Source: a virus. Taken from it: a stretch of 64,000 nt of DNA. How positions within the stretch are numbered: position 1 is the first letter of the stretch; each line of letters opens with the position of its first letter. Location of the stretch: IMG/VR virus record IMGVR_UViG_3300041409_000157, positions 8,117-72,116 of that record, one strand, 5' to 3'. The position numbers and the translations under genes are program-made. The notes under the pieces are model-generated. The model did no database searches, was not told the origin of the DNA, and saw only the letters and a program-made list of their open reading frames with translations. Positions 5,440 to 14,381 of the stretch are shown here, piece after piece.

Positions 5440-5709
5440 ATGAAACCTACATTGATGACGCCGCCGCTCAGATTACAAGCAATCCGTAACCGATTGAGCG
5501 CGTTGCTCCAGCGCCGGGTCACACCAATGGCTCCAGCATCCGTTAATGAAAAGGAAGGATGGTTCATCAACAGTCTTCAGAATCAGTTCTTCCGCCAGCA
5601 AAAGCCAGTCACAGTCCTCCTTAAAGATGGCTCTGAGAAAATCCTGAAGTGCCCCTCTTGCAGCAGGATGATGAACCAATTCGTAACCCACTGGAAACAC
5701 CATGTCTGA
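5440..5709 (+). CDS. Hypothetical protein upstream of terminase (CxxC...H..HH motif)
   Basis: GGAG upstream of ATG 5440; overlaps the terminase start. Confidence 0.45.
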   Translation: MKPTLMTPPLRLQAIRNRLSALLQRRVTPMAPASVNEKEGWFINSLQNQFFRQQKPVTVLLKDGSEKILKCPSCSRMMNQFVTHWKHHV

Positions 5710-7276
5710 GGCGCTTGACTGGGCACCATCCACCTCCCCCAAGCAGGATCTCCTGCGCTGGCTCGTCCACCCAGACAATCCCGACCGGAAACCCTACACC
5801 TGCGTCAGCGGTCCCCGCATGTCGAGCAAGACCATCGGGTGCCTCCACGCCGTGGTCGAGAACGCATGGCTCGTGAACCGTGCCAGATGGTCCATGCTCT
5901 CCCCCACCGTCACCAACGCCACGGACGGCGGCTTCTGGAACGACCTCACCGAGGTGGTCATCCCGAAGTGGATCGAAGCTGACATCGGCATGAAGTGGCA
6001 CAAGGAGCCTTACGTGGAAGCCGTCTCCAAGCGGCACAAGTGCTCGATCATCAACTCGCACGGCACCGTGAGTGTCTTCCAGCTGGAGTCCTTCCGGGAG
6101 GGGGCCAACATTGACGACCTGAAGACGCGCTTCAAGGGCAAGCGGTTCAACGGCATCTACTGGTCGGAGGCGGGCACCTGGGTCAAGACGCGCGAGGCGT
6201 TCGACATCCTCATGGGCTGCTTTCGCAGTGACGCTGACATGACATGGAAGAAGGACGACTACACCATGCTCATCGACACGAATCCTGAGCCCCCCGGTGA
6301 GGCGCACTGGATTTACGAGATGTTCTACAAGTTCCGCACCCTGGATTCCTCGGTGCTCATGGACTTGGTGAACGGCAAGGATGTCTCCATTGAGGACATG
6401 CTTCGCAAGCAGAACCAGCTCGGTCTCATTGAGTTCTTCGTCAAGGATAACCCGTTCCTAACGCCCGACCAGCTCGCAGAGCTGAAGACCCGCTACGCTC
6501 ACTCTCCTGAGCTGTGGGACCGCTACTACCTCGGGAAGTGGACCTCCGCCGCTTCCGACGGCCTGTTCTTCGACGTGTTCCGGCCAGTCATCCACACGGC
6601 GGGTGAGAGCGAGACACCCATCAACAAGGAGCCGCTCCTGCTCCTGCCATCCGATGACTGCCACGAGTTATTTTGCGGAGTGGACCCCGGCATCAGCAAC
6701 TACGCGGCGGTGATTGCAGAGGAGTTCCTCTGGCCCGACAAGCACGGCAAAGAGCAGGTGAACTTCAACGTGGTCGACGAGCTGGTGTGGTTGGCTGAGG
6801 ACGCCAGTATTGGAGAATTCACTGGAGAACTCATGGCCAAGATGGACTTCTGGGAGAACCTGCTCAACCGGAAAGTACGCTGGCATCACTTCTCCGACCG
6901 CTCCGCCTTCGACATGCGCGAGAGCATCAGCAACCGACGTCAGCATGTGGAGGTGGCGCTGGTGTCCAACAAACGGATCATGCTCACAGCGGTGATGAAG
7001 GGTGACGGATCAGTGCGCCAGCGCATCGACATCCTGCGGAAGCTCCTGCATCAGGACCGCATCACGTTCTCCAAGGCGCGCTGCCCGCACACGATTCGCG
7101 CAGTGGAGTCGCTGAGGAAGGGCAAGAACTACCCGCTGGACAAGCAGAGCGAGCACAAGCACGCCTTCGACGCGCTCACCTACATGCTCTCTACGCGGTG
7201 CTATCAGGAGCTGTTCCGCCAGAGCAAGACGCGGGTGGAGCGGGTTGCTCCGGTGATGACGCAGATTGTGCTGTAG
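5702..7276 (+). CDS. terL: Terminase large subunit
   Basis: Walker A-like SGPRMSSKT, Walker B-like IYWSEA, coupling motif DTNP, nuclease motifs GVDPG and HAFDAL. Confidence 0.9.
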   Translation: MSEALDWAPSTSPKQDLLRWLVHPDNPDRKPYTCVSGPRMSSKTIGCLHAVVENAWLVNRARWSMLSPTVTNATDGGFWNDLTEVVIPKWIEADIGMKWHKEPYVEAVSKRHKCSIINSHGTVSVFQLESFREGANIDDLKTRFKGKRFNGIYWSEAGTWVKTREAFDILMGCFRSDADMTWKKDDYTMLIDTNPEPPGEAHWIYEMFYKFRTLDSSVLMDLVNGKDVSIEDMLRKQNQLGLIEFFVKDNPFLTPDQLAELKTRYAHSPELWDRYYLGKWTSAASDGLFFDVFRPVIHTAGESETPINKEPLLLLPSDDCHELFCGVDPGISNYAAVIAEEFLWPDKHGKEQVNFNVVDELVWLAEDASIGEFTGELMAKMDFWENLLNRKVRWHHFSDRSAFDMRESISNRRQHVEVALVSNKRIMLTAVMKGDGSVRQRIDILRKLLHQDRITFSKARCPHTIRAVESLRKGKNYPLDKQSEHKHAFDALTYMLSTRCYQELFRQSKTRVERVAPVMTQIVL

Positions 7277-9194: not shown

Positions 9195-9847
9195 GCGGTG
9201 AGGGCAAGCTGCATCTTTGGAAGACTGGCATACTTACCGGTTCCACAGCATGTGTTACAGCACACCCATTCTCCCGTTCTGTCGTAAGTGGTGTCCATGA
9301 ACCCCTTCTTTCCTTTGCATGTTGGACACACCTCGAAAACATTGGCCATCCCCTCCGCCGCCTTGACCTTGAGGCGGAGCTTTTCGATGATCTCTCCCTG
9401 CACCTTCAACAAATCGCCGTGAATGGATAGATTTGTCTCAACGCCACGCAACCGCTCCACCTCCGCACGGAGCGAGGCGAGTTTGGCTGACTGCGCGTGA
9501 GATTCGTTGATGGACTGTTGCGCATTGCTCAACAGATTTTCTGAAGTGCGCTCGTCAGCCAGTGCAACTGCAAGCTCGCTCCGCAACCGCTCCACTTCCG
9601 CCAGCATCTCGCGCCCGGCGTTTGTGGCGAGGGCGGATCTGCCGGTGTTAAAGGCGGCTGCCATAACAGAATGCTCTTTCGTTGGGAACGCAGACGCCAA
9701 GACAATTTCCAATCCCGTCCGCAACTTCGCCGCCCCGGATTCCGATTTACGGAGTTCGCGTTCGAGTTCTCTTGCCATTTCGATTGGAACATGATGCCAT
9801 CCATGGCAGTTCTTCAACACACGATCAGTTCTTGGTGTATCACTCAT
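9173..9847 (-). CDS. Coiled-coil protein with DnaJ-type Zn finger
   Basis: CPTCKGKKG and CNTCCGTG repeats; duplicated AEVERLR. Confidence 0.65.
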   Translation of the reverse strand: MSDTPRTDRVLKNCHGWHHVPIEMARELERELRKSESGAAKLRTGLEIVLASAFPTKEHSVMAAAFNTGRSALATNAGREMLAEVERLRSELAVALADERTSENLLSNAQQSINESHAQSAKLASLRAEVERLRGVETNLSIHGDLLKVQGEIIEKLRLKVKAAEGMANVFEVCPTCKGKKGFMDTTYDRTGEWVCCNTCCGTGKYASLPKMQLALTAWQEANK

Positions 9848-9853
9848 GCCGCG

Positions 9854-9883
9854 AAGTTGACGTCACTTTGGGGATTCTGTCAA
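9854..9883 (-). promoter_or_regulatory. Sigma70-like promoter, leaderless type
   Basis: TTGACA-18nt-CAACTT-6nt-ATG; same CAAAGTGACG box as at 8300. Confidence 0.5.
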
Positions 9884-10186
9884 GGCGATTTCAACTGCCG
9901 TCGCCACCCGCTCCACCAGCGGAGGATCCACTGGCGCAAAGCGGTCGGCCGAGAACCCCATCTCCGCCCCATGCTTGTTCCGGGGGTCCGGCGGGTTGAG
10001 CAGCTCCTCCAGCAGGATGCTCGGGACCACCTTGCTGGTGTCACTGATGGGATGCAGGTAGGCGCGCCCAGGCTGCACCGCCCGGATCGTGTAGGTGTGG
10101 CCCCGCACGGGGAGTTCGCAGAGGACGCGCTTCAAGGGCGCGGGGAAGTCGTCCCGGATGCAGATGACGCGGAGGCCTTTCTTCAT
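9863..10186 (-). CDS. Hypothetical protein
   Basis: MKKGLRVICIRDD...G.TYTIR...FSADRF.P; SH3-like phage pattern. Confidence 0.65.
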   Translation of the reverse strand: MKKGLRVICIRDDFPAPLKRVLCELPVRGHTYTIRAVQPGRAYLHPISDTSKVVPSILLEELLNPPDPRNKHGAEMGFSADRFAPVDPPLVERVATAVEIALTESPK

Positions 10187-10206
10187 AGGAGTGAAAGCTG
10201 AAGATT

Positions 10207-10479
10207 TTACCAACCTCCGGGAACCGGCTTGCCAGCATCCGGATGGGCGCAAAGTGGTGCGCGCTCCTTGCGGGGCAAGCCATCCTTCCGGGGTTTGAAC
10301 ACCGATTTCCCATCCAAAGCTCGCTTCCAATCATCGTCGGAGATCTCGCGCCCGGCAACCCGACGCGGCCAGCCTGAGTGTAGATCGGACCATCGCATTC
10401 CGAAGGCTTCGATGGTGGCGCGAGTCCACCCTCCGTTGGCAGTGCGGCACTCGAAGATGCGGTCAATGGTAAGCTTCAC
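10207..10479 (-). CDS. Hypothetical phage protein
   Basis: GTGA-coupled to the replication gene; T.NGGWT...GW motif. Confidence 0.6.
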   Translation of the reverse strand: MKLTIDRIFECRTANGGWTRATIEAFGMRWSDLHSGWPRRVAGREISDDDWKRALDGKSVFKPRKDGLPRKERAPLCAHPDAGKPVPGGW

Positions 10480-11225
10480 GACTGGGCATCCTCCATTTTC
10501 GCCGCCAAAGAGGAAACGTAGCTTCGCCAGTTGCGGATGCGCTCCCATCGGTTGCGAAGACTGCTCCAGTGACACCACTTGTTCCGCAGCAGCTCATCGT
10601 AAAGCTCGATCCGGTGCGCCGCAACAAGGGGAGCTTCGGAGTCCAAGAAGTCATCGAATTCAGTCTGACTTGGAACCTCGGACGACTTCGGCAATTTGAT
10701 GCCCCAAAGCCTTCGCTGCTTTTCCTCCTCCGATGGCTTCGCCACCGGCTTGAAAGAACCACCTGTAGATCGAGAAATATCCACACCAACCCGAGTTGGT
10801 GTCTCTTTAGTCTCTTCAGTCACTGTGAAGTCTTCATTCTTATGGGAAGTCTTAGTGTCTGGCTTTTCCGTGGCGGGTTTTTTCCGCTGCGGTGAACTGT
10901 GGTTTTCGCGCACCGTCTTGCATGGATTCTGGAATACCGTGTAGACGGTGTGCGAGAACTTCCCATCCTCCCCCTTTTGCACAGCGGAGATCCACCCAGC
11001 CAGCTTCAGCTCGGTGAGGTATTTGTAGAAGGTGTCTCGGCTGATGCTCAGGCACTTGGAGATGTAAACCGCGCTCGGGAAAGCTGTTTCCCCGTTGGGG
11101 GAGCAGTGGGAGCGGATGGCTAGATACACCATCTTGGCACCCATGGACAGATCGGGGTCGAGGATGAAGCTCTTGCGGACTGAGAAGTCCCAGTCACCCT
11201 TGAATGCTACACGGTCTTGTTTCAT
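10476..11225 (-). CDS. Winged-HTH replication initiator-like protein
   Basis: DPDLSMGAKMVY...AFPS...ISRDT...LTELKLAGWI pattern of phage HTH replication proteins; start re-assigned to 11225. Confidence 0.75.
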   Translation of the reverse strand: MKQDRVAFKGDWDFSVRKSFILDPDLSMGAKMVYLAIRSHCSPNGETAFPSAVYISKCLSISRDTFYKYLTELKLAGWISAVQKGEDGKFSHTVYTVFQNPCKTVRENHSSPQRKKPATEKPDTKTSHKNEDFTVTEETKETPTRVGVDISRSTGGSFKPVAKPSEEEKQRRLWGIKLPKSSEVPSQTEFDDFLDSEAPLVAAHRIELYDELLRNKWCHWSSLRNRWERIRNWRSYVSSLAAKMEDAQS

Positions 11226-11373
11226 GGCAGTTTTGGAGTTCTGCCAGGACGGATCGAAATGCCCCCGACCGAAGTCGTCCCAGCAGGCGTGACTCAGCGT
11301 AGGAAACACCGGGGCGGGGGGCGTCGCTTGTCCGGCGGGTCAAATTGATTGTTCCACACTGAGTCACGGAGTC

Positions 11374-11401
11374 AGCGTAGAGGATTATTTCAGGCTGTCA
11401 A
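11374..11401 (-). promoter_or_regulatory. Sigma70-like promoter for the HTH replication gene
   Basis: TTGACA-16nt-TACGCT; predicted start ~11367 coincides with the beginning of a structured leader. Confidence 0.65.
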
Positions 11402-11434
11402 CTGGCTAAATTCGTCGCGCTTTTCTACTCTCTT

Positions 11435-11503
11435 ACGGCCAGTGCTAGCAGTTACACCACTAGAGCGCGCCAACTAGGCGGGATTCCAACCCGCACCTGC
11501 CGT
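11435..11503 (-). ncRNA. Circularly permuted tRNA-like module (T-arm, closed acceptor stem, D-arm)
   Basis: ACGGC-AGGT-GCGGG TTGGAAT CCCGC-CTAG(10 nt)CTAG-TG-GTGT AACTGCTA GCAC-TG-GCCGT; U8-A14, A15-U48 and swapped C19-G56 retained. Confidence 0.7.
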
Positions 11504-11900
11504 CTAAATCTTCTCTCCCCACCAGGACCCCGGGAACCGCTCCAGCAGACAAGCTGGATACATTTGTACGACCAGCAGTCCCCGAGGCCGGGGTGGGGAG
11601 AGTTCGCTGAAGTGAGCAGCGGAAGTCCGGGCGATTTCACCACGGGCCTAGGATGGTGGATCTTTTCGTAGACCGGGCGGAACCGCTGCTCAACTCAACG
11701 AACTCTCAAAGAGCGCCTCGCTGCACGCAGGCAGGGAGGCTTTAGCGGCACGCCGTCTTACGGAGCGACCTGCGAACGTGCCTGAAAGATTGCCCAGACC
11801 ACCGTCACCCGTCAGCTTAGGGTGTGAAGCGGAGCCGACAGAAGCACTGGCCAGTGGGCATCTGGTGTTCCAGTGGGACAAGTTGTTCGTCCGCTTCACA
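11435..11900 (-). ncRNA. Candidate large structured non-coding RNA (or ncRNA cluster)
   Basis: No credible ORF; series of long stems whose mismatches are mostly G-U only on the minus strand; promoter directly upstream. Confidence 0.65.
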
Positions 11901-11906
11901 GGGGTG

Positions 11907-11934
11907 AGACTACACCTCCCCGCACCACCGTCAA
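11907..11934 (-). promoter_or_regulatory. Sigma70-like promoter for the structured RNA
   Basis: TTGACG-16nt-TAGTCT; predicted start ~11900 is the first base of the first stem. Confidence 0.65.
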
Positions 11935-11943
11935 GGATGTTTC

Positions 11944-12336
11944 TCAAGAATTCTTCAAGCTCTCCACCCTCAGCCTGAATTTCCTCCGCTTCAGCTCCAG
12001 CACCACCCGCTCCACGAGCTTCCCTGTATCCCCCGCCACCCACTCCTCAAAGTCGTCCGACCCGGCAATCGCCCCAAGGATCTTCGCCCGCCATACGGCC
12101 GCGTGCGCGCACTCATGGGCAATGCTGTCCAGCGTCAGCCGGTCCCCCGGCAGGTGCAGCTCCGCAAACAAGCCCCTCTCCGCCACCCGATGACACTGCC
12201 AGCAGCACGCCAGACAGGACCGCGCTCCCGGAGTGACCTTCCTGCGCCACCTCTGCAACGCCTTCAGGCTACCATGCACCCAGACTTCGATGTGATGAGT
12301 GCTTCGAGAATGTAGGTAGATGGGGAAGTGGGTCAT
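11944..12336 (-). CDS. HExxH-motif (zincin-like) protein
   Basis: IAHECAHA followed by a downstream EE; start re-assigned to MTHF at 12336. Confidence 0.65.
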   Translation of the reverse strand: MTHFPIYLHSRSTHHIEVWVHGSLKALQRWRRKVTPGARSCLACCWQCHRVAERGLFAELHLPGDRLTLDSIAHECAHAAVWRAKILGAIAGSDDFEEWVAGDTGKLVERVVLELKRRKFRLRVESLKNS

Positions 12337-13013
12337 ATCAGATCGTTGAACTGGACGCCTCACGCTGCGCTGCCTTCAAGGCTTCCCTGCGCCGCTTCAT
12401 GTAGAGCAACCTCCGACTGCGGTTCCTGCGGTGATACCGCTCTGCCTGGGCCTTTCGATTACCCTTACCCCCACGCGCCCCACGGCGAGGCTTGGAAGAC
12501 GCCCCTTGCGCGTCTTCAGGCGCATCTGGTTGAGCGTATTCATCCACAGCCCAAGACGAACAGGGTGGGTGTAAGAGCACAAGCCTGAAAGTGGCCGAAA
12601 GACGGGTTTCTGACAGGATGGCCAAGAACAGGGTGGGTGGAAGCGGTGCCGCAGCAGGATCAGCCTGAGCGGATACTCCAAAGGTGGCGTGAGGATTTTT
12701 TTGAAGGAGTGAGCCTGTAGAGGGGTGTAGAAGGAGGTGGGTGGGGAAGATTACGGCCAAGGGAATCCCCACCCGGCACTGGCTGAGGAATACCGCTAAG
12801 GATGGGTCCACGGGAATTCCCGCAGAGGGAGTGCTGCAAGCGAAAGCGTAAAGGGGTGATGCTTTGACGGGGTGTATAGGGAGTGGTGTCGCAAAGGAGG
12901 GATATCGATTTAATAGAACCCCATGCCAGTATCTCTCGACCAGATACTCTTAGGAAACGAGGCCGGGGGAGGCCCCCAAAAGGGCGGTGCCAGGGCCTGC
13001 CCGCCCAGCCGCG

Positions 13014-13562
13014 TCACCCGACCAACATCGGCACGCCGCTCCCCGGCAGGAGGTAGCCCTTCCATGGCCTACCCTTCATGCGACGCTTCTTAGCGGCCAT
13101 GCTAGCAGACGCAAACCTATAAGCGTCAATGGGTTGCGTCTTCTCTGGCGCACAATAGTGGTTATGTTTAATGGCTGGGCCTGTGCGCCTATGTAAAGTC
13201 TTGAGCATCAACTCTTTACGGTCCTGCTCCGAAGGCTCTTCGACGAATCGCCCCCAAGTTGCAATGTGAAACAGGCTCGAAAGGTTGCTGGGCCGAAAGG
13301 TCATGCTCCATAGCTGCCAGATCAGGCGGGCTGTGCAGGCGCGCACCGTTGGTGTCTGCTCGCCTCTACGTTGCGTCCAGACGGGAATGCCCAACGAAGC
13401 TAGCAAGTCTGCCCGATAATGCGCCTGAAGGGCAGCCAGCCAGCGGGAAACCTCTGCCGGAGAAGGATCGCAGGAGCGGGAAAGGGCGAGCAGTTCGCTT
13501 TGCAGCACAGGCAGCACTTTAGAGCAAAGCACTTTGTCCCGCAATGCGCGATTGAGAGACAC
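13014..13562 (-). CDS. Hypothetical protein with basic C-terminus
   Basis: 182 aa ORF at the strand-switch region; function unknown. Confidence 0.45.
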   Translation of the reverse strand: MSLNRALRDKVLCSKVLPVLQSELLALSRSCDPSPAEVSRWLAALQAHYRADLLASLGIPVWTQRRGEQTPTVRACTARLIWQLWSMTFRPSNLSSLFHIATWGRFVEEPSEQDRKELMLKTLHRRTGPAIKHNHYCAPEKTQPIDAYRFASASMAAKKRRMKGRPWKGYLLPGSGVPMLVG

Positions 13563-13707
13563 GCTTCACTTGCCCCATTGGTTGGAGGCTTGCCGGGCGT
13601 GCGGGCGGGCGTGATTTCCGCCCCCTCTCCCCTGCATTCCCCAAAAAATAAACCTGCATAAAACCCCCGTAAACATTGCCTCGCCACACCTTTCGCAAAA
13701 TAATAGT

Positions 13708-13735
13708 TGCCGTCAGTTTACTTTTCGATATTCTG
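13708..13735 (+). promoter_or_regulatory. Putative promoter of the plus-strand early-type cluster
   Basis: TTGCCG-16nt-TATTCT in an AT-rich gap, followed by a hairpin and GAAAGG before the first gene. Confidence 0.45.
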
Positions 13736-13796
13736 AGCAGCGTAACGGTTTTAGCGGCTCCCCCCAGTAAGGGGAGCCAAAGCGAAAGGTTCAACG

Positions 13797-14381
13797 GTGA
13801 AAAAGCAAAATCCTCAAATAGCAATCTGTCACGGTATTAATCAGCTTCACCCTCGCGAATCATCCTTCACGAGTGGCCGCGATGAAATCCGGGTGACGAT
13901 TGGGCGCCTTGACGACACGGATGGAAAGCCCCGCAATTTCAGCTTGTCCAGCATTTCCCCGGGCTCACCGGAATCGCGGATTTCAACGGGCGGCTGCTTT
14001 GCCCGCATTTGGAGCGCCCAGCCTGCGAGCTATCATGTTCCGGGCTCGACTGAGTGCAATTACTTTGTGGCGCACGGCATGGAGATTTCACATGGCGACT
14101 TGCCTGAATACGAGCACGCCATCCGCGCCTTGAAGCTGATTGCCAAGCGGCAGGCTGGGCAATACGAAACGCGAGGCAATGCTACCGATGCAGCGGACGC
14201 CATGGGGCGCTGGCTTGAAGCGTGCGGCGTCACGCAGGTTTACTTGCGGCCGGAGAGTGGACGCAACCGGCAATGGCTGACGGATGGCGAGTGGCAATGC
14301 CTGACGCTGGGGGTGTTCGTCGTGCAGGTGCGGAAGGCTCTGGCGGTTGTGCCGGGTGTTCCCATTGAAGCTTCCCTCTAA
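13797..14381 (+). CDS. Hypothetical early protein
   Basis: 194 aa; GAAAGG RBS-like motif upstream. Confidence 0.65.
   Translation: MKKQNPQIAICHGINQLHPRESSFTSGRDEIRVTIGRLDDTDGKPRNFSLSSISPGSPESRISTGGCFARIWSAQPASYHVPGSTECNYFVAHGMEISHGDLPEYEHAIRALKLIAKRQAGQYETRGNATDAADAMGRWLEACGVTQVYLRPESGRNRQWLTDGEWQCLTLGVFVVQVRKALAVVPGVPIEASL

What the first reader, a model, noticed from the sequence alone, without database searches (positions are those of the whole stretch)
11435..11934. Promoter-driven ~470-nt multi-hairpin non-coding RNA candidate
Seen: TTGACG-16-TAGTCT places a start at ~11900, the first base of a perfect 11-bp stem (11890-11900 with 11823-11833). Short hairpins follow (CACCC/GGGTG, GGCACG/CGTGCC enclosing CCGT/ACGG, GCCTC/GAGGC). 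Next come a ~110-nt rod (11598-11707, 14-bp and 10-bp helices), a ~90-nt branched rod (11513-11602, with a 16-bp helix containing 4 G-U pairs) and the tRNA-like module. Many mismatches become G-U only on the minus strand, as expected for RNA-level selection. The next promoter begins at 11401, bounding the unit. I do not recognise it as tmRNA, 6S, SRP or RNase P. Inference: an undescribed phage large ncRNA or a processed ncRNA array.
Basis: partly seen in the sequence, partly recalled or inferred. Interest (0 to 1): 0.85.

Follow-up and report, generated by a model that had tools for sequence, protein, structure and literature searches.

The report
Orphan phage RNA with tRNA mimic
Between two genes of an uncultivated soil phage lies a non-coding stretch that folds, on one strand, into two long RNA rods followed by a back-to-front tRNA look-alike; it is probably a phage regulatory or decoy RNA, but no relative or transcript could be found to prove it.

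Summary
The 718-nt gap between a small HExxH gene and the replication-initiator gene of a complete 72-kb soil phage is non-coding. On the minus strand it folds far better than shuffles (z -6.0), ranking second of 616 GC-adjusted genome windows. The excess comes mainly from two rods (11598-11707, z -7.5; 11513-11602, z -8.0) and, more weakly, from the 5' hairpin (z -3.7). The middle part (11708-11822) shows no excess. The 3' module (11435-11503) aligns without a broken pair to the tRNA-like domain of YrlA (Rfam RF02553), but at 16 bits against a 69-bit cut-off. It lacks the Ro-binding part, and the phage has no Ro60 gene. The only two TTGACR-N16/17-TANNNT sites in the 64 kb bracket the unit. 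No full Rfam family matches, ORF 11690-12043 has no coding signature and no homologue, and no homologue of the whole RNA turned up anywhere. One other permuted module with the same elbow swap sits in another phage's tRNA cluster. My best reading is a promoter-driven, Ro-independent structured RNA whose working head is a tRNA-elbow mimic. Whether it is one RNA, an array or a leader of the rep mRNA stays open. The scan has noted permuted tRNA mimics in other phages before; this one lacks their partner genes.

The parts
11907..11934 (-). P1: promoter-like site TTGACG-16-TAGTCT, placing a start near 11900. It begins 10 nt after the stop codon of the upstream gene.
   Evidence: one of only 2 matches in 64 kb. 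It falls below the generic sigma-70 scan's threshold. No transcript data.
11823..11900 (-). D1: 5' hairpin closed by a perfect 11-bp stem.
   Evidence: I8; z -3.66, 0 of 200 shuffles as good. It folds as well on the plus strand. The full-length MFE does not use this stem.
11708..11822 (-). D2: linker with short hairpins (CACCC/GGGUG, GGCACG/CGUGCC, GCCUC/GAGGC). It holds a second copy of TGACGGTGGT.
   Evidence: z +0.78, no excess. Only the GCCUC/GAGGC hairpin recurs in the folds. The repeat is D2.
11598..11707 (-). D3: rod of 14 bp (2 G-U), a 1x1 mismatch, 10 bp, then a ~60-nt branched tip.
   Evidence: z -7.48; I2. It is equally stable on the plus strand.
11513..11602 (-). D4: rod of 11 bp, a 2x2 loop, 16 bp with 4 G-U, then a three-way tip. 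It shares CUCUC with the end of D3.
   Evidence: z -7.96; the MFE holds 58% of the ensemble; I1; -64.1 on minus against -48.5 on plus; z -6.2 against -1.5.
11435..11503 (-). D5: circularly permuted tRNA mimic. In order: closing stem ACGGC/GCCGU, AGGU, T arm GCGGG-UUGGAAU-CCCGC, a loop-closed 4-bp acceptor-like stem, U8 G9, and D arm GUGU-AACUGCUA-GCAC.
   Evidence: YrlA model positions 22-89, 16.1 bits, no pair flagged; 18 of 18 standard pairs. The C19:G56 swap is read from the sequence.
11843..11852 (-). 5' arm of a perfect 10-bp long-range helix with 11437-11446. It competes with the D stem and closing stem of D5.
   Evidence: I11. The unconstrained MFE uses it. Enforcing the cloverleaf costs 7.8 kcal/mol.
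11374..11401 (-). P2: promoter-like site TTGACA-17-TACGCT for the rep gene, 33 nt after D5.
11226..11370 (-). Structured leader of the rep gene: a long hairpin CGUGACUCAGUGU.../...ACGCUGAGUCACG and a second hairpin just before the ATG at 11225.
   Evidence: z -3.78; I5, D6; z -4.0.
11944..12336 (-). Upstream gene: 130-aa protein with HECAH (an HExxH motif), of unknown function.
   Evidence: phrog_1365, E 2.5e-5. (no Pfam family). (nearest Atlas clusters are viral hypothetical proteins). (GC3 0.79).
10476..11225 (-). Downstream gene: replication initiator (HTH_36).
   Evidence: PF13730, E 7.6e-10. (phrog_270 and others annotated as replication initiation).

Best explanation
This is a non-coding transcription unit in the early/replication module of the phage. 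Transcription starts near 11900 from P1. The RNA folds into a 5' hairpin, a loosely structured linker, two long rods and a 3' module. That module is a tRNA turned inside out: the acceptor end is sealed by a loop, there is no anticodon loop, and the chain is opened at the anticodon stem. I take the tRNA-elbow mimic to be the working head. It would bind a host protein that recognises the tRNA elbow, such as a Ro60/Rsr-type particle, a tRNA-processing enzyme or a tRNA-directed defence enzyme. It cannot itself be charged or cut at an anticodon. The rods would give nuclease resistance and further protein-binding surface. The 3' end would come from processing after the module, or the transcript would run on into rep.

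Shown: non-coding status, strand-biased excess structure, the tRNA-like architecture, and the absence of a Ro60 gene in the phage.
Inferred: the promoter, that it is one RNA, the partner, and the effect.
For: - Non-coding.
- Structure excess.
- Minus-strand bias: 6 G-U against 0 A-C in the rod arms, and D4/D5 energies favour the minus strand.
- The only 2 TTGACR-N16/17-TANNNT sites of the window bracket the unit in the right orientation.
- D5 aligns to the YrlA tRNA-like domain with every pair standard.
- Read against tRNA numbering (my reading, guided by Chen 2014 passages and Wang 2018 section 6), D5 keeps U8, A14, A15:U48, G18, A21, G46, G53:C61, U54, U55, R57 and A58. The 19:56 elbow pair is swapped to C:G and so is kept as a pair.
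- The same UUGGAAU T loop with GC at positions 18-19 occurs in ordinary phage tRNAs.
- A second permuted module in another phage (L035 5876-5950) has different closing-stem and D-stem pairs that still pair.
- No TROVE or RtcB gene in the complete phage.
Against: - No homologue of the whole RNA, so no covariation for the rods.
- 21 phage fragments with related TerL lack it.
- The YrlA score is 16.1 bits against a 69-bit cut-off. A messy 17.8-bit chance-like hit occurs in two of those related records, so the score alone is weak.
- D5 has no thermodynamic excess (z -0.87), and the MFE prefers a competing 10-bp helix.
- D1 and D3 fold as well on the other strand, and D2 has no excess.
- No terminator after D5. 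P1 and P2 have weak -10 boxes and fail the generic promoter scan.
- All flanking genes are on the same strand, so read-through from an upstream promoter is likely.
- In L035 the module stands alone between tRNAs, without rods.
Confidence: 0.4

Rival explanations
1. It is not a separate RNA gene. It is a structured intercistronic region or long leader of the early leftward operon mRNA, and it controls rep expression. The 25-27-bp rods would serve as RNase III-type processing or stabiliser hairpins, and the tRNA-like fold as a processing or stability element. P2 and the leader hairpins would give a second level of control.
For: - All genes from 13562 down to 9173 lie on the minus strand, and promoter-like sites sit in the divergent gap at 13676-13728.
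- There is no terminator between D5 and rep.
- The rep leader itself is structured (z -3.78).
- The -10 box of P2 is repeated 78 nt downstream and forms a long hairpin (D6, I5).
- The rods are long enough for double-strand-specific RNases (established knowledge of RNase III sites in T7 and lambda; recalled).
Against: - A tRNA mimic with a preserved elbow is not a known part of such leaders.
- P1 sits exactly at the base of the first helix, and P2 gives rep its own start.
- The related phages that keep part of rep (3 of 21 loci) or p182 (5 of 21) have no such region.
Confidence: 0.25
2. Only the ~70-nt tRNA mimic is a functional RNA, cut out of a longer transcript. The rods are unrelated elements, namely terminators or 3' stabilisers of the upstream operon. 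The '470-nt RNA' would then be an accident of adjacency.
For: - In L035 the same kind of module stands alone between tRNA-Asp and tRNA-Glu.
- The excess structure sits in separate blocks with nothing between them.
- D2 has no excess.
- D3 is strand-symmetric.
Against: - The rods are not followed by U runs.
- D4 ends only 9 nt before the module.
- A perfect 10-bp helix links the 5' domain to the module (I11).
- P1 lies upstream of all of it.
Confidence: 0.2
3. It is a DNA-level element: palindromes and repeats that act as operators or as part of the replication origin next to the initiator gene.
For: - The location is beside rep.
- D3 and D1 are as stable on the plus strand.
- TGACGGTGGT occurs at the -35 box of P1 and again 126 nt downstream.
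Against: - 6 G-U against 0 A-C in the arms, and a 15.6 kcal/mol strand difference for D4.
- The tRNA-like module has no meaning as DNA.
- A better origin candidate lies inside rep: direct repeats at 10824-10853 and a palindrome at 10902-10959, with z -7.2 on plus and -5.0 on minus.
- No iterons in the gap.
Confidence: 0.08

Closest known systems
YrlA (Y RNA-like A; Rfam RF02553; Chen et al. 2014, PMC4201824; Wang et al. 2018, bioRxiv 10.1101/312249)
   Same: The order of parts matches: closing stem, short variable stretch, T arm, loop-closed 4-bp acceptor-like stem, U8-N9, D arm. The tRNA core nucleotides match, including an A15:U48 Levitt pair. There is no CCA end and no anticodon loop (passages).
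   Different: - 16.1 bits against a 69-bit cut-off.
- Only model positions 22-89 align. The 5'/3' helix and the GNCGAAN0-1G motif are absent.
- No Ro60/TROVE gene in the complete phage, whereas the described YrlAs lie within 4 kb of one.
- The elbow pair is C19:G56 instead of G19:C56.
- The module is the 3' end of ~400 nt of other structure rather than the middle of a ~100-nt RNA.
Stand-alone permuted tRNA-like module in another IMG/VR phage fragment (L035 5876-5950)
   Same: It has an identical 17-nt T arm with UUGGAAU, a variable stretch AGUU (here AGGU), U8 G9, and a D loop AAUCGCUA (here AACUGCUA) with G18 C19. It has a 5-bp closing stem and a 4-bp D stem with different but pairing letters. 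No TROVE gene is in its record.
   Different: It lies between tRNA-Asp and tRNA-Glu in a tRNA cluster, with no rods. Its acceptor-like hairpin is 6 bp with a 4-nt loop. The phage is unrelated by the proteins compared. It was found through the T-arm word, so the likeness of the T arm is by selection.
Permuted-tRNA RNAs beside DUF7873 or Ro60-like genes, noted earlier by this scan on other DNA (unpublished AI notes)
   Same: They are phage RNAs of 290-460 nt built around anticodon-less, back-to-front tRNA mimics, without canonical Ro60.
   Different: - No Pfam family of that kind in any of the 26 ORFs of this phage that I scanned. I could not confirm that the Pfam copy holds DUF7873.
- One mimic here, not two.
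- No CAGCAA 'handle'.
GOLLD and ROOL (large phage-associated structured RNAs in Rfam)
   Same: They are large, elaborately folded non-coding RNAs carried by phages, and are often near tRNA genes (recalled).
   Different: No match even at E <= 10 in 11100-12400. This phage has no tRNA genes in the window.

Membership tests
YrlA (RF02553) | Score at or above Rfam's gathering cut-off (69 bits) | tested here: not met
   16.1 bits. E is 0.4 for 131 bases against all families and 0.053 for the family over the 72-kb genome.
YrlA (RF02553) | Permuted tRNA-like domain: T arm, loop-closed acceptor-like stem and D arm inside a closing stem | tested here: met
   The alignment to model positions 22-89 has no flagged pair. 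18 of 18 pairs are standard.
YrlA (RF02553) | tRNA tertiary-contact nucleotides (elbow 18/19 with 55/56, Levitt 15:48, 8-14-21) | tested here: met
   Read from the sequence against Chen 2014 and Wang 2018. All are present, and 19:56 is swapped to C:G, which still pairs. No 3D test.
YrlA (RF02553) | GNCGAAN0-1G motif near the 5' end, and a 5'/3' helix for Ro60 | tested here: not met
   The full motif is absent from 11226-11960. GACGAA occurs twice (11891-11886, 11416-11411), which is the background rate of 1.4 per kb. Model positions 1-21 and 90-114 are unaligned.
YrlA (RF02553) | Encoded within about 4 kb of a Ro60/TROVE gene, on the same strand | tested here: not met
   PF05731: 0 matches at E <= 1 in the complete 72-kb record. 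The host is unknown, so a host Ro60 could not be tested.
tRNA (ARAGORN) | Standard-order cloverleaf with a 7-bp acceptor stem and an anticodon loop | tested here: not met
   0 tRNA genes in the window. 0 found in six rotations of the module.
Any Rfam 15 family (including GOLLD, ROOL, 6S, tmRNA, SRP, RNase P) | A match at the gathering score | tested here: not met
   0 matches in 64,000 bases. Of the 9 matches at E <= 10 in 11100-12400, 6 are hairpin-type matches to D4 (five miRNA-precursor models and one H/ACA snoRNA, Pab91), 2 are weak plus-strand lncRNA-region matches, and 1 is the YrlA match.
DUF7873-partnered tRNA-mimic RNAs (earlier notes of this scan) | Partner gene directly upstream of the RNA | tested here: inconclusive
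   None of the 26 scanned ORFs has such a Pfam hit, and the upstream gene is a 130-aa HExxH protein. I could not confirm that the family is in the Pfam copy, nor obtain a member to compare.

The most novel reading that the evidence does not exclude
This is a Ro60-independent phage 'anti-tRNA-surveillance' RNA. It would be a large early transcript whose uncleavable, unchargeable tRNA-elbow mimic titrates a host enzyme that recognises tRNA by its elbow, such as a tRNA-cutting defence nuclease or the tRNA-damage response. The perfect 10-bp helix between the 5' domain and the D arm would switch the mimic on and off.
Probability: 0.1. Interest if true: 0.8.

Novelty: new variant of a known kind. 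Interest (0 to 1): 0.45.

Why it matters
tRNA-shaped modules without an anticodon or CCA end are known mainly as the effector domain of bacterial Y RNAs, and even there their partner is unknown. A phage that carries such a module without any Ro60 gene, fused to large rods and placed in front of its replication initiator, would show that the tRNA elbow is used as a free-standing handle in phage-host conflicts. It would also offer a small, defined RNA with which to fish for the unknown partner. The compensated C19:G56 elbow pair, shared with some phage tRNAs and with one other permuted module, points to origin from a phage tRNA lineage.

Tried and rejected
Homologue searches that found nothing:
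- blastn of 11380-11960 against 50,697 phage records.
- The T-arm 21-mer in IMG/VR.
- A 20-mer of the 5' domain in JGI metagenomes and in IMG/VR.
- nhmmer and blastn against 21 related loci: 0 nhmmer hits in 412,568 bases, and blastn pieces of at most 26 nt with E >= 1.5.
- Look-alikes in this scan's own index.

Protein routes:
- The rep protein has only itself among 169 candidates.
- The HExxH protein has only itself among 12 candidates.
- The search for related loci with rep, HExxH or TerL alone found none.
- TerL has no match in cultured phages or in genome contigs.
- A TerL alignment gave 21 IMG/VR loci at 49-61% identity. They share p845 and TerL. p182 is present in 5 of 21, part of rep in 3 of 21, HExxH in 0 of 21, and none has the RNA.

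YrlA model on other records:
- 0 of 5 related records at E <= 5.
- 2 of 16 at E <= 1. Both are the same sequence, with the T loop deleted and several broken pairs; I judged it chance.
- 3 of 10 T-arm records at E <= 1. The best is the L035 module at 15 bits.

Loop-pattern scans:
- IMG/VR: 1 hit, L035 again.
- Metagenomes: 2 hits. L043 has a good D arm, a weak T stem and no closing stem, so it is doubtful. L044 looks coding.
- Species genomes: 2 hits, both AT-rich and coding-like, about the number expected by chance.

T-arm 17-mer in IMG/VR, 14 loci:
- 5 lie in ARAGORN-called tRNAs.
- By eye, 6 more have an ordinary-order cloverleaf.
- 2 are unclear.
- 1 (L035) is permuted.

Other tests:
- ARAGORN on the rotated module found nothing, as expected with a 4-bp acceptor stem.
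- MAFFT of the three modules misaligned the 3' stems, so I compared the pairs by hand and did not run the count of structure pairs.
- The generic promoter and terminator scans show no enrichment.
- TGACGGTGGT: 17 matches with up to 1 mismatch against 3.1 expected. The third exact copy is inside a gene, so I give the repeat little weight.

Sequencing runs:
- No RNA holder is listed.
- One freshwater run holds a single 151-nt contig equal to 11750-11900, with 3 differences, at depth 2. Contigs cannot show an RNA end, so I draw nothing from its end at 11900.

Rejected ideas:
- A repeated mobile element: there is no second copy in the genome.
- A retron, CRISPR or ToxI-type array: there are no repeats.

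Not seen: the supplementary tables of Chen et al. 2014 listing phage YrlAs were closed, so a similar Ro-less phage example there cannot be excluded. Only two literature searches were made, so I make no claim that this RNA is absent from print.

Full report
**Setting.** The window is bases 8117-72116 of a 72,116-bp virus record with direct terminal repeats, rated complete. The only full holder among public runs is a soil metagenome. The finding lies in a 718-nt gap (11226-11943). All neighbouring genes are on the minus strand.
- Upstream is a 130-aa protein with an HExxH motif (phrog_1365, function unknown).
- Downstream is a replication initiator (HTH_36, and PHROG families annotated as replication initiation).
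- The phage is isolated. Its terminase has no match in 50,697 phage records. The two flanking proteins have no relative other than themselves in the 5.8-billion-protein word search.

- The 466 nt fold at -220.2 kcal/mol on the minus strand (z -5.98) against -198.9 on the plus strand (z -3.72). In each case 0 of 100 shuffles did as well.
- As a control that keeps the phage's own composition, I folded 308 windows of 466 nt on both strands and regressed on G+C. Only 1 of the 616 strand-windows has a lower residual than the target.
- The excess is not spread evenly. With 200 shuffles each, D4 (11509-11606) has z -7.96, D3 (11598-11707) -7.48 and D1 (11823-11900) -3.66. D2 (11708-11822) has +0.78 and the tRNA-like D5 has -0.87.
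- A 120-nt sliding scan of 9400-13879 (110 windows) found 6 minus-strand windows below z -3. Four of them are in this gap.

**Strand.** In the paired arms of D3 and D4 the non-Watson-Crick positions are 6 G-U, 0 A-C and 3 pyrimidine-pyrimidine. This is what selection on a minus-strand RNA predicts; a chance 6:0 split has a probability of about 0.03. D4 loses 15.6 kcal/mol on the plus strand and D5 loses 7.3. D3 and D1 are as stable on the plus strand.

**Coding.** There are stops in all six frames of 11435-11900. ORF 11690-12043 has GC1/2/3 of 0.62/0.62/0.55 against 0.62/0.47/0.75 in 10,012 training codons, and a codon log-odds of -0.04, where 12 of the 14 training genes score 0.20 to 0.48 and two about zero. 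It has 0 hits at E <= 0.001 among 1.84 billion protein representatives.

**Promoters and ends.**
- TTGACR-N16/17-TANNNT matches twice in the whole 64 kb, both on the minus strand, at 11934-11907 and 11401-11374. Shuffles average 0.47, and 9 of 100 reach 2.
- The pattern was written from these two sites, and both -10 boxes match the consensus in only 3 of 6 positions. The generic scan therefore does not list them.
- There is no terminator-like site on the minus strand between D5 and rep.
- Promoter-like sites in the divergent gap at 13676-13728 could drive read-through of the whole leftward block.
- No RNA run is listed for this DNA, so starts and ends remain inferred.

**Known families.** Rfam 15 gives 0 matches at gathering scores in the window.
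- At E <= 10, the only meaningful match in 11100-12400 is YrlA (RF02553) at 11432-11503, minus strand, model positions 22-89 of 114, at 16.1 bits. The family-wise E over the genome is 0.053.
- The alignment covers exactly the tRNA-like domain and flags no non-standard pair: closing stem ACGGC/GCCGU, AGGU, T arm, a 4-bp stem closed by a 10-nt loop, UG, D arm. A cloverleaf of 18 pairs has 17 Watson-Crick pairs and one U-G at 13:22.
- Read in tRNA numbering, U8, A14, A15:U48, G18, A21, G46, G53:C61, U54, U55, G57 and A58 are all present. The elbow pair G19:C56 is replaced by C19:G56. These are the contacts that Chen et al. 2014 and Wang et al. 2018 describe for YrlA (passages read).
- The bit score alone is weak. 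Two related phage records gave a 17.8-bit hit whose alignment has the T loop deleted and several broken pairs.
- What lifts this match is its clean architecture, the compensated elbow pair, and its place and strand.

**Why it is not a YrlA member.**
- The score is far below the cut-off.
- The Ro-binding 5'/3' helix and the GNCGAAN0-1G motif are missing.
- The complete phage has no TROVE gene and no RtcB gene.
- It is also not a standard tRNA.

**Relatives of the module.**
- The 17-nt T arm occurs in 14 IMG/VR loci. 5 lie in ARAGORN-called tRNAs and, by eye, 6 more in ordinary-order cloverleaves. Several have GC at D-loop positions 18-19. The C19:G56 elbow is thus a natural variant among phage tRNAs.
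- One locus, L035 5876-5950, is permuted like D5. In order it has the T arm, a 6-bp hairpin, U G, the D arm GAGU-AAUCGCUA-ACUC, and a closing stem UCGGG/CCUGA. It lies between tRNA-Asp and tRNA-Glu and scores 15 bits with the YrlA model.
- Compared with D5, two closing-stem pairs and one D-stem pair differ on both sides and still pair (my hand comparison; MAFFT misaligned the stems).
- L035's record has no TROVE match, and its 10 neighbouring ORFs gave only a terminase.
- Loop-pattern scans of IMG/VR, JGI metagenomes and 185,579 species genomes added only one doubtful case, L043.

**Relatives of the whole RNA.** None was found by DNA search. None was found in 21 IMG/VR fragments whose terminase is 49-61% identical and which share the neighbouring structural genes. 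The early region differs in those phages. The rods therefore have no comparative support, which is the main weakness of the case.

**A competing fold.** The unconstrained MFE pairs 11852-11843 with 11446-11437. This is a perfect 10-bp helix (I11) that excludes the D stem and closing stem. Forcing the cloverleaf costs 7.8 kcal/mol, which is within what tRNA tertiary contacts could repay. It may be a switch or it may be chance; about 0.1-0.2 such perfect 10-mers are expected in 466 nt (my estimate).

**Reading.**
- Most likely (0.4), this is a non-coding unit driven by P1 whose working head is the tRNA-elbow mimic. The rods serve as stabilising and protein-binding parts, and it acts on a host factor that recognises tRNA by its elbow, without a phage Ro60.
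- The rivals are:
  - a processed leader or intercistronic region controlling rep (0.25);
  - a small tRNA mimic that merely lies next to unrelated hairpins (0.2);
  - DNA-level operators or an origin (0.08). A better origin candidate lies inside rep, at 10824-10959.
- This scan's earlier notes describe many phage RNAs with permuted tRNA mimics next to Ro60-like or DUF7873 genes. I found no such partner among the 26 ORFs scanned and no CAGCAA handle. I could not compare sequences with those cases.

**Verdict.** The finding is a real, strand-biased, non-coding structured region with a credible YrlA-type tRNA mimic. It is a new variant of a known kind. It is an orphan, and neither its unity nor its expression has been tested.

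Noticed in passing
window 10824-10959 (inside the rep gene): Direct repeats TGTGAAGTCTT and TGGGAAGTCTT lie 19 nt apart, beside a 17-nt inverted repeat (10902-10918 / 10943-10959). This is the strongest local structure in the 9.4-13.9 kb scan, seen on both strands (z -7.2 plus, -5.0 minus). It is a candidate replication origin inside the initiator gene, as in lambda O.
   Followed up: partly
window 13680-13799: A strong local structure on both strands (z -5.2 and -4.8) lies in the divergent gap between the leftward and rightward early genes. The gap also holds two back-to-back promoter-like sites (13676-13704 on plus, 13728-13700 on minus).
   Followed up: no
window 12338-12811: The 157-aa ORF upstream of the HExxH gene has a poor coding signature (GC1/2/3 0.63/0.55/0.60). 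A minor contig in the source-like run skips 12338-12662 (325 nt). Part of this ORF may therefore not be a gene, or it may vary between strains.
   Followed up: no
L035 5876-5950: A stand-alone circularly permuted tRNA-like module with a C19:G56 elbow lies between tRNA-Asp and tRNA-Glu in an unrelated IMG/VR phage fragment. No TROVE gene is in the record.
   Followed up: partly
L026/L032, L033, L036, L037, L028, L034, L038 (IMG/VR loci): These phage tRNA-like genes have the T loop UUGGAAU (G56) and GC at D-loop positions 18-19. Several are not called, or are called oddly, by ARAGORN. L033, L036 and L037 share the word GTGGTGTAA with the D arm of the window's module.
   Followed up: no
window 11750-11900: A freshwater metagenome run holds one 151-nt contig at depth 2 that equals this stretch with 3 differences. 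Nothing else of 9800-13200 is held there at high identity. The contig's end coincides with the predicted start at 11900, which contigs cannot interpret.
   Followed up: partly
window 11924-11933 and 11798-11807: The 10-mer TGACGGTGGT occurs at the -35 box of P1 and again 126 nt downstream inside the RNA. It could be an operator pair or chance.
   Followed up: partly
window 5702-7276: The terminase large subunit has no tblastn match in 50,697 deposited phage genomes. It has 57 metagenomic relatives besides its own record (58 proteins listed), the closest at 75% identity. This is an uncultivated phage lineage.
   Followed up: partly
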